DNA of 64,000 nt from the human T2T-CHM13v2.0 reference genome, Homo sapiens, in NCBI RefSeq assembly GCF_009914755.1, contig NC_060939.1. The stretch is one strand, 5' to 3'. The translations under genes and the position numbers were made by a program. The stretch's first letter is position 1, and each line of letters starts with the position of its first letter. Below, one piece after another: positions 26,693 to 27,696 of this stretch. The notes beneath the pieces are model-generated. The model saw only the letters and a program-made list of their open reading frames with translations, searched no databases and had not been told where the DNA came from.

Positions 26693-27696
26693 CCAGGCAA
26701 ATGCAGAGGTATGTATGGTGTATTTATGGTGGCTAAGCTAAATATGAAAACTGGTTTTAATGGATGAAATGTAAAAACTCTAGGTGTATTCCATACTGGT
26801 TACCTAAATGAGTACTCTAGCATCTATTATAACTGACTCAACTTCAGTCAGCCTGAAATACCTGTCCCATCACAGAAATGGTCTCCCACTAAATAATGCT
26901 GAGCAAAGCTCTAGGTACAGAGCACTTCACAGTACAGAGCTATGTTTGAAGTTTGGGCTGGGCGCGGTGGCTCATGCCTGTAATCCCAGCACTTTGGGAG
27001 GCCGAGGCGGGTGGATTACCTGAGCTCAGGAGTTCTAGACCAGCCTGGGCAACACGGTGAAAACCCGTCTCTACTAAAATACAATAAACCAGTCAGTCAT
27101 GGTGGCATGTGCCTGTAATCCCAGCTACTCGGGAGGCTGAGACAGGAGAATCTCTTGAACCTGGGAGGCGGAGGTTGCAGTGAGCCAAGATCGTGCCACT
27201 GCACTCCAGCCTGGGTGACAGAACAAGACTCCATCTCAAAAAGGGAAAAGTCCGGGTTGAAGTGCATATTCTACTCCAATAGCAGTTTTCTAGTCTGTGC
27301 GCCTGGCATACTTGAGTTTAGTAAGCATTTGTGAAAATACTATTCAAATGTTAGCTGTAATACAAAATAAACATACCTGAATGATTATCCTGCCCTCTTT
27401 TGGGAGGAAACATGTATTACTGCCTCTGTTCTCAAAAAGGTTTATATTCTGTCCTTGATTGTTTTTTCATGTACCTAGAGCTTTGCTCAGCATTATTTAG
27501 TGGGAGACCATTTCTGTGATGGGACAGGTATTTCAGGCTGACTGAAGTTGAGTCAGTTATAATAGATGCTAGAGTACTCATTTAGGTAACCAGTATGGAA
27601 TACACCTAGAGTTTTTACATTTCATCCATTAAAACCAGTTTTCATATTTAGCTTAGCCACCATAAATACACCATACATACCTCTGCATTTGCCTGG
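26693..27696. repeat. Perfect 227-bp inverted repeat (26693-26919 and 27470-27696) with 550-bp spacer
   Basis: The reverse complement of the right arm matches the left arm base for base by eye, with no indels. Confidence 0.96.
26956..27241 (+). mobile_element. Alu in the spacer of the inverted repeat
   Basis: ggctgggcgcggtggctcatgcctgtaatcc...gactccatctcaaaa. Confidence 0.93.

What the first reader, a model, noticed from the sequence alone, without database searches (positions are those of the whole stretch)
26693..27696. Perfect 227-bp inverted duplication of unique DNA just beyond the GTF2A2 3' end
Seen: 26693-26919 is the exact reverse complement of 27470-27696, around a 550-bp spacer that holds an Alu. 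The arms are not a repeat I recognise and lack an obvious TSD. A 9-mer, gtacagagc, is repeated at the inner left junction (26915-26923 and 26932-26940). Inference: 100% identity means a very recent template-switch inverted duplication or ongoing arm-to-arm gene conversion, and the spacer could be an invertible segment. The right arm ends ~90 nt downstream of the most distal GTF2A2 AATAAA. Read-through RNA from GTF2A2, or extended GCNT3 RNA, would fold into a 227-bp perfect duplex, a plausible ADAR/PKR/Dicer substrate.
Basis: partly seen in the sequence, partly recalled or inferred. Interest (0 to 1): 0.75.

Follow-up and report, generated by a model that had tools for sequence, protein, structure and literature searches.

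The report
Young inverted duplication beside GTF2A2
A 227-base stretch of single-copy human DNA just past the end of the GTF2A2 gene is present twice in opposite orientation with no differences, most likely the neutral scar of one fairly recent break-repair or copying error, of a kind already known.

Summary
Window 26693-26919 is the exact reverse complement of 27470-27696: 227 nt, 0 mismatches, 550-nt spacer. Homology stops dead at all four ends.

- **Copy number:** the arm occurs only twice in the 3.1-Gb assembly, and the flank and non-Alu spacer occur once.
- **Rarity:** of 376 nearby inverted pairs in 264 kb of contiguous DNA, this is the only one above 91% identity.
- **Not a repeat family:** no mobile-element hallmarks, no match to a MIR profile built here, and no Rfam family in the arms.
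- **Age:** the spacer Alu is old (6.8% non-CpG divergence), which would predict about 31 arm-to-arm differences at that age. Zero differences in 227 CpG-free bases only bounds the age below about 7-16 My. "Very recent" is therefore not required.
- **Junctions:** two diagonally opposite junctions carry 8-9-nt direct repeats, which occur in 2.7% of random 40-nt windows. They are the junctions that would be new if the spacer was inverted while one flank was duplicated.

My reading is a one-step inverted duplication, probably neutral. Its arms exceed the 200-bp criterion used for recombination-mediated inversions. The dsRNA idea is physically sound but untested. Polarity, age and polymorphism need ape and pangenome sequence, which was not available here.

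The parts
26693..26919 (.). Left arm of the inverted repeat (227 nt, GC 38%, no CpG). Proposed ancestral copy, contiguous with the left flank.
   Evidence: exact reverse complement of the right arm. (only two places in the genome). Ancestral status is inferred from the junction repeats.
26920..27469 (.). 550-nt spacer. It is single-copy DNA plus one old Alu. Proposed to have been inverted in the founding event and to be flippable by arm-to-arm recombination.
   Evidence: Inversion is an inference.
26957..27240 (+). Alu element inside the spacer. It has 6.8% non-CpG divergence from a local majority Alu sequence, so it is much older than the arm duplication.
   Evidence: SRP/Alu-type Rfam hits. 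(88 Alu copies compared; this one ranks 56 of 88).
27470..27696 (.). Right arm of the inverted repeat (227 nt). Proposed derived, inverted copy. Its outer end lies 73 nt beyond the annotated GTF2A2 transcript end.
   Evidence: plus the annotation supplied with the finding.
26915..26940 (+). Inner-left junction (26919|26920) with the direct 9-mer gtacagagc twice (26915-26923, 26932-26940). The first copy spans the junction.
   Evidence: repeat of 8 or more nt in 2.7% of random 40-nt windows.
27684..27706 (+). Outer-right junction (27696|27697) with the direct 8-mer tgcatttg twice (27684-27691, 27699-27706), one copy on each side.
27786..27791 (-). Distal GTF2A2 poly(A) signal AATAAA, read on the minus strand. 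It is the only one in 26300-27900.

Best explanation
This is a young, probably neutral, one-step inverted duplication of 227 bp of single-copy intergenic DNA. It arose after the Alu in the spacer, within roughly the last 7-16 million years or much later.

**Most likely form of the event (inferred).** The 550-bp segment next to the original copy was broken out and rejoined upside down, while the 227-bp flank was copied onto its far side. This is an inversion with duplication of one breakpoint region, as in the staggered-break model, or the equivalent pair of replication template switches.
- The left arm stayed in place.
- The right arm is the new copy.
- The new joins are 26919|26920 and 27696|27697. 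They look blunt, with 0-1 nt of shared sequence, as in end joining.

**Consequences.** The perfect arms are now long enough for arm-to-arm recombination to flip the spacer or keep the arms identical. With a 550-bp spacer they should not be fragile as DNA. No function is indicated.

**Shown:** the structure, its uniqueness, the sharp ends, the old Alu and the junction repeats.

**Inferred:** age, polarity, mechanism and neutrality.
For: - **Exact arms, abrupt ends.** 227/227 identity, with loss of homology at all four ends and no degenerate extension. This points to one discrete copying event and not an eroding old repeat.
- **Single-copy DNA.** The arm has 2 places in 3.1 Gb; the flank and the non-Alu spacer have 1 each.
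- **Outlier locally.** It is 1 of 376 nearby inverted pairs in 264 kb; 374 are below 90% identity and one is 90.4%.
- **Younger than the Alu.** The spacer Alu has 6.8% non-CpG divergence, rank 56 of 88. About 31 arm-to-arm differences would be expected at that age, and 0 are seen.
- **Junction repeats.** 2 of 4 junctions have direct repeats of 8-9 nt within 20 nt either side. The chance per 40-nt window is 2.7% (40,000 random windows). By my arithmetic the chance for 2 or more of 4 is about 0.004. They form the diagonal pair expected to be new in an inversion with duplication. The other two junctions show 4 nt and under 4 nt.
- **Precedent.** Ranz et al. 2007 (PMC1885836, passages read) report that 17 of 29 Drosophila inversions carry inverted duplications of non-repetitive breakpoint DNA. 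In 12 of the 17 only one breakpoint region is duplicated. Sizes run from 46 bp to 1.9 kb, median 321 bp.
- **DNA stability.** A review (PMC7999016, passages) states that fork stalling at inverted Alus in eukaryotic cells was seen with a 12-bp spacer but was no longer frequent at 52 bp. A 550-bp spacer should therefore be tolerated.
Against: - No outgroup or second human haplotype could be examined, so single-copy ancestry, polarity, spacer orientation and age are not shown.
- The junction repeats are offset from the joins and do not fit simple microhomology priming in either direction (my reading). They may be partly chance. Of the 9-mer, only 5 nt come from the arm.
- A plain inverted insertion of a 227-bp copy at one site would give the same present-day structure.
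- Zero differences is also what efficient arm-to-arm gene conversion would give.
- The site is not listed in the held supplements of two human inversion and structural-variant papers. This neither supports nor refutes polymorphism. Text searches found no paper on the site.
Confidence: 0.55

Rival explanations
1. Simple templated inverted insertion. A break 550 bp away from the source was patched with an inverted 227-bp copy, either by template switching during repair or by capture of a fragment. The spacer was not inverted, and either arm could be the insert.
For: It gives the same present-day structure and the same sharp ends. Each junction repeat taken alone fits one of the two insertion versions.
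Against: Either version explains only one of the two junction repeats. No fold-back microhomology is present at the positions such priming would need (my reading). There is no target-site duplication.
Confidence: 0.25
2. An older inverted repeat, shared by many primates, whose arms are kept identical by continuing arm-to-arm gene conversion, as in sex-chromosome palindromes.
For: 0 differences in 227 nt while the spacer Alu has diverged 6.8%. The close spacing favours intrachromatid exchange.
Against: The arms are perfect to the last base, with no decayed homology beyond them. Conversion needs flanking identity, so old arms should fray at their edges (inference). 227 bp is near the lower limit for efficient mammalian homologous exchange (recalled, not tested). 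Known conversion-maintained palindromes have arms of kilobases.
Confidence: 0.12
3. A functional RNA element. GTF2A2 read-through transcripts form a 227-bp perfect duplex that is edited, diced or sensed, or that helps termination. Alternatively the spacer acts as a regulatory flip switch.
For: The minus-strand RNA 26660-27769 folds with every arm base paired, at -608 kcal/mol. The arms start 73 nt past the annotated cleavage site. An ATTAAA on the minus strand lies in the left arm at 26756.
Against: There is no expression, editing or small-RNA evidence. No Rfam family matches the arms. No paper links GTF2A2 to A-to-I editing or inverted repeats. RNA downstream of a cleavage site is normally degraded quickly (established knowledge). 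A young duplication has had little time for selection.
Confidence: 0.05
4. An assembly artefact in T2T-CHM13, or a mobile element with long terminal inverted repeats.
For: Perfect identity is what a consensus error or a very young element would give.
Against: The whole structure is 1 kb, far shorter than the long reads used for this assembly (established knowledge). For the mobile-element version: only one locus in the genome, no abutting target-site duplication, no match to a MIR profile built from 14 genome copies, and no hit in viral or prokaryote contig collections.
Confidence: 0.03

Closest known systems
Inversion-associated inverted duplications (staggered-break or isochromatid model; Ranz et al. 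2007, PMC1885836)
   Same: Non-repetitive breakpoint DNA is present twice in opposite orientation, flanking the segment between. Often only one breakpoint region is duplicated. The reported size range of 46 bp-1.9 kb includes 227 bp.
   Different: Those cases flank large chromosomal inversions in Drosophila and were polarised with outgroups. Here the enclosed segment is only 550 bp, the species is human, and the ancestral state is not known.
Human inversion polymorphisms flanked by inverted repeats, and 'inverted duplication' structural variants (Porubsky et al. preprint 10.1101/2021.12.20.472354)
   Same: [quoted passage not shown] 40 sites are classed as inverted duplications. The arms here are 227 bp and perfect.
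   Different: Most of those repeats are segmental duplications or mobile elements and the inversions are larger. This site was not found in the held supplements of two related papers, and both orientations have not been seen.
Sex-chromosome palindromes maintained by arm-to-arm gene conversion
   Same: Near-identical inverted arms around a unique spacer.
   Different: Those arms are kilobases to megabases long, carry genes and are conserved between species. Here the arms are 227 bp with no gene, and conversion is not demonstrated.
Inverted Alu pairs in 3' UTRs as ADAR substrates
   Same: An intramolecular RNA duplex would form downstream of, or within, a transcript. An imperfect Alu pair is also present here: 26980-27052 against 27814-27886, 84% complementary.
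   Different: The arms are unique DNA, are perfectly paired, and lie beyond the annotated poly(A) site. Editing is untested.

Membership tests
Inversion with breakpoint inverted duplication (staggered-break type) | Two inverted copies of non-repetitive DNA bounding the segment | tested here: met
Inversion with breakpoint inverted duplication (staggered-break type) | Outgroup shows one copy and the enclosed segment in the opposite orientation | not testable with these tools
   No primate or second human genome is held. Searches found no other copies.
Inversion with breakpoint inverted duplication (staggered-break type) | Repair signatures confined to the two diagonal (new) junctions | tested here: inconclusive
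   8-9-nt direct repeats at the inner-left and outer-right junctions only (2.7% background). They are offset from the joins.
Recombination-competent inverted repeat (polymorphic inversion substrate) | [quoted passage not shown] | tested here: met
   227 bp at 100%.
Recombination-competent inverted repeat (polymorphic inversion substrate) | Both spacer orientations present among haplotypes | not testable with these tools
   Not listed in the supplements searched. Those call sets may miss events under 1 kb.
DNA transposon or MITE with terminal inverted repeats | Multiple copies in the genome | tested here: not met
   the two arms of this locus only.
DNA transposon or MITE with terminal inverted repeats | Target-site duplication abutting the ends | tested here: not met
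   the flanks ...ctccgc and tatgca... share nothing at the ends.
MIR (ancient SINE), considered because parts looked MIR-like by eye | Significant match to a MIR profile | tested here: not met
   a profile built from 14 genome copies and iterated to 48 hits. Its best hit on 26476-27800 has E 1.3 and score -2.5.
Conversion-maintained palindrome | Arms shared with other species yet more alike within a species than between species | not testable with these tools
   No outgroup sequence.
Known structured RNA or miRNA hairpin | Rfam family match in the arms | tested here: not met
   only Alu-derived hits, none in the arms.

The most novel reading that the evidence does not exclude
This is a human-lineage-specific, still flippable 550-bp segment bounded by perfect 227-bp arms, immediately past the GTF2A2 poly(A) site. 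Its read-through RNA forms one of the longest perfect natural hairpins of unique sequence in the genome. That hairpin would feed Dicer, ADAR or dsRNA sensors, or influence termination of a core transcription-factor gene. Alleles (one arm, two arms, either orientation) would differ in GTF2A2 3'-end processing.
Probability: 0.05. Interest if true: 0.6.

Novelty: new member of a known kind. Interest (0 to 1): 0.3.

Why it matters
If the polarity proposed here is right, this is a clean, base-resolved human example of a very small inversion born together with a duplication of one breakpoint flank. It would be useful for studying how inversions and the inverted repeats that later make them recurrent arise in one step. 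It is also a convenient natural test case: unique sequence, perfect 227-bp arms and a 1-kb total that any long read or PCR can span. It could be used to measure spacer flipping and arm-to-arm conversion at the lower size limit of homologous exchange. There is no sign that it affects GTF2A2.

Tried and rejected
- **MIR-derived arms.** By eye, the arm plus the right part of the spacer looked like an old MIR split by the Alu, which would have fixed the polarity. I built two MIR profiles from the genome's own copies. The first used 4 seeds and reached 13 hits. The second used 14 seeds found with a two-motif pattern (control 0) and was iterated to 48 hits. Neither matched 26476-27800: no hit at E up to 100, and a best E of 1.3. 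Rejected.
- **Transposon with long terminal repeats.** Rejected on copy number and on the missing target-site duplication.
- **Fold-back (snap-back) priming at a break.** The microhomology it needs is absent at the required positions for either arm (my reading). Not supported.
- **Degenerate extension of the arms.** None found.
- **Relatives in the window.** An nhmmer search with the arm, spacer and flanks found only themselves.
- **Other haplotypes or copies.** A 40-nt arm word gave 0 matches in each of the prokaryote and viral contig collections.
- **Literature.** GTF2A2 with 'inverted repeat' gave 1 irrelevant paper. GTF2A2 with inversion and chr15 gave 0. GTF2A2 with A-to-I gave 0. Coordinates and gene name are absent from the held supplements of PMC10150506 (2 files) and PMC12350169 (1 file). 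Supplements of the bioRxiv preprint could not be opened, and the journal version was not held. Its inversion table could bear on whether the site is polymorphic.
- **Base-rate census elsewhere.** The rarity estimate therefore rests on the 264 kb around the locus.

Full report
**1. The observation**

The window sequence, the repeat finder and an exact string comparison agree. Positions 26693-26919 are the perfect reverse complement of 27470-27696: 227 nt, no mismatch, 550 nt between the arms.

The similarity ends abruptly.
- Of the next 14 positions outward, 4 pair; of the next 14 inward, 3 pair. Both are at the chance level.
- A permissive blastn (word 7) of the 300-nt outer flanks and the two halves of the spacer finds no decayed inverted homology.

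The next-longest exact inverted match in the whole 64-kb window is 53 nt. In 264 kb of contiguous DNA (the window plus the 200 kb upstream) there are 376 inverted pairs with arms of 100 nt or more and spacers of 10 kb or less. Of these, 374 are below 90% identity, one is 90.4%, and this one is 100%. So the feature is real and far from chance or from the Alu background.

- The 9-mer gtacagagc lies at 26915-26923 and 26932-26940.
- The only minus-strand AATAAA in 26300-27900 is at 27786-27791, which is 90 nt from the arm.
- The annotated GTF2A2 end at 27769 is 73 nt from the arm.

**2. What the pieces are**

- **Arms and flanks are single-copy.** The arm occurs at just these two places in the 3.1-Gb assembly. 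The non-Alu right part of the spacer (27241-27469) and the left flank (26476-26692) occur once each. An nhmmer search of arm, spacer and flanks against the window finds only themselves.
- **No structured RNA family in the arms.** Rfam reports only Alu-type (SRP-like) hits at 26957-27073 and 27092-27239 (+) and 27799-27914 (-), plus sub-threshold Alu-derived microRNA models.
- **Upstream repeat.** 26150 to about 26476 belongs to a high-copy interspersed repeat: 5,836 first-look candidates, 40 scored, alignments ending at query 324-330. By eye I recognise it as a 5'-truncated L1 on the minus strand. Unique DNA starts right after it.
- **Arm composition.** The arms are 38% GC and contain no CpG.

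**3. A lead that failed**

By eye, the inner end of the left arm and the right part of the spacer looked like one old MIR element split by the Alu. That would have shown the left arm to be the original.

I built MIR profiles from the genome's own copies. The first came from 4 copies. The second came from 14 copies found with a two-motif pattern (5 forward, 9 reverse, reversed-pattern control 0) and was iterated to 48 hits. Neither profile matches 26476-27800. One search gave no hit at E up to 100, and the best hit had E 1.3 and score -2.5. The idea is rejected. The arms are not recognisably MIR.

**4. Age**

The Alu in the spacer differs from the majority sequence of 88 local full-length Alus at 6.8% of non-CpG sites. 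The median is 6.4% and this Alu ranks 56 of 88. About 32% of its CpG positions have changed. It is an ordinary old Alu.

Two arms of that age would differ at about 31 positions. They differ at none. So the arms were duplicated long after the Alu inserted, or they have been homogenised.

For 227 sites and rates of 1.0, 0.5 and 0.4 x 10^-9 per site per year (standard values, from general knowledge), the chance of zero differences falls to 5% only at 6.6, 13.2 and 16.5 My. It falls to 50% at 1.5-3.8 My. The event could be human-specific, could be shared with African apes, or could be a polymorphism.

**5. The junctions**

I compared the four junctions for direct repeats within 20 nt either side.

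| Junction | Position | Longest direct repeat |
|---|---|---|
| Inner-left | 26919\|26920 | gtacagag(c), 8 nt in that window, 9 nt in full |
| Outer-right | 27696\|27697 | tgcatttg, 8 nt (27684-27691, 27699-27706) |
| Outer-left | 26692\|26693 | 4 nt |
| Inner-right | 27469\|27470 | under 4 nt |

Among 40,000 random 40-nt windows of the local 264 kb, 2.7% contain a direct repeat of 8 nt or more and 1.4% one of 9 nt or more. By my arithmetic, two or more such junctions out of four has a chance of about 0.004.

The two marked junctions are diagonal. If one arm had simply been inserted, the two new junctions would bound the same arm. If instead the spacer was inverted while one flank was copied to its far side (a-b-c-d-f becoming a-b-[d'c'b']-f), the new junctions are exactly the inner-left and the outer-right. 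The outer-left and inner-right junctions would then be ancestral contiguities.

This is the structure that Ranz et al. 2007 explain by staggered breaks followed by fill-in and end joining (PMC1885836; abstract and passages read).
- 17 of 29 Drosophila inversions carry inverted duplications of non-repetitive breakpoint DNA.
- In 12 of those 17, only one breakpoint region is duplicated.
- Sizes run from 46 bp to about 1.9 kb, with a median of 321 bp.

Two replication template switches would give the same product.

Caveats:
- The joins themselves show 0-1 nt of microhomology (my reading).
- The repeats are offset by 2-13 nt from the joins and do not fit simple microhomology priming in either strand direction.
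- Of the 9-mer, only 5 nt come from the arm.
- A short templated patch (the four bases gagc after the arm) is possible but unproven.

The polarity is therefore an inference.

**6. What the structure can do now**

*As DNA.* A review of palindrome instability (PMC7999016, passages) reports fork stalling at inverted Alus in eukaryotic cells with a 12-bp spacer, but no longer frequent at 52 bp. It relates this to the 100-200-nt single-stranded zone at eukaryotic forks. With 550 bp between the arms, hairpin or cruciform fragility is not expected.

*For recombination.* Porubsky et al. [quoted passage not shown] The 227-bp perfect arms pass that bar, so spacer flipping and arm-to-arm conversion are plausible but unobserved.

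The site and the gene name are absent from the held supplements of PMC10150506 and PMC12350169. Events under 1 kb may be missed there, and the preprint's own tables could not be opened.

*As RNA.* The minus-strand sequence 26660-27769 folds with every arm base paired, at -608 kcal/mol. A minus-strand ATTAAA lies in the left arm at 26756. Whether polymerase read-through RNA survives long enough to matter is untested. No paper links GTF2A2 with A-to-I editing or inverted repeats. GCNT3 ends 14 kb upstream and is not a credible source of such RNA.

**7. Verdict**

This is a real, rare-looking but ordinary kind of structural scar: a young inverted duplication of unique DNA. It was probably created together with an inversion of the 550-bp segment it now encloses.
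- It is not a mobile element: two arms only, no target-site duplication.
- It is not a known RNA.
- It is very unlikely to be an assembly error, because the whole structure is 1 kb.

It is a new member of known kinds (inverted-duplication variants, and inverted repeats that can mediate inversion). The dsRNA or switch reading stays open at low probability. The decisive data, ape orthologues and human pangenome haplotypes, were not available.

Noticed in passing
window 25930-26476: A 5'-truncated L1 fragment on the minus strand (family recognised by eye; high copy number confirmed, 5,836 candidates). It appears to be flanked by a roughly 16-nt imperfect target-site duplication: ggcaactaagattctt near 25912-25927 and gggaactaagactctt near 26481-26496. 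Unique DNA therefore begins just after 26476.
   Followed up: partly
window 26661-26685, 26693-26705 and 27697-27713: The short words aaatgc (or its complement gcattt) and ccaggc (or gcctgg) recur several times around the two outer junctions. A 7-mer, tttgact, lies on both outer flanks (26673-26679 and 27703-27709) but does not abut the arms. This could be chance or the trace of extra short template switches. Unexplained.
   Followed up: partly
window 26980-27052 vs 27814-27886: The spacer Alu (+) and the Alu fragment inside the GTF2A2 3' UTR (27799-27914, opposite orientation) form a 73-nt, 84% complementary inverted pair. Read-through RNA would pair there as well as at the perfect arms.
   Followed up: no
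window 26518-26542 vs 27735-27759: A 25-nt direct repeat of 76% identity lies on either side of the whole structure (D3; blastn E 0.034). It is probably chance.
   Followed up: no
window 26940-26956 and 27259-27270: The spacer Alu has a degraded target-site duplication (about gtttgaagt and ggttgaagt) wholly inside the spacer. This fits an Alu insertion independent of, and earlier than, the arm duplication.
   Followed up: partly
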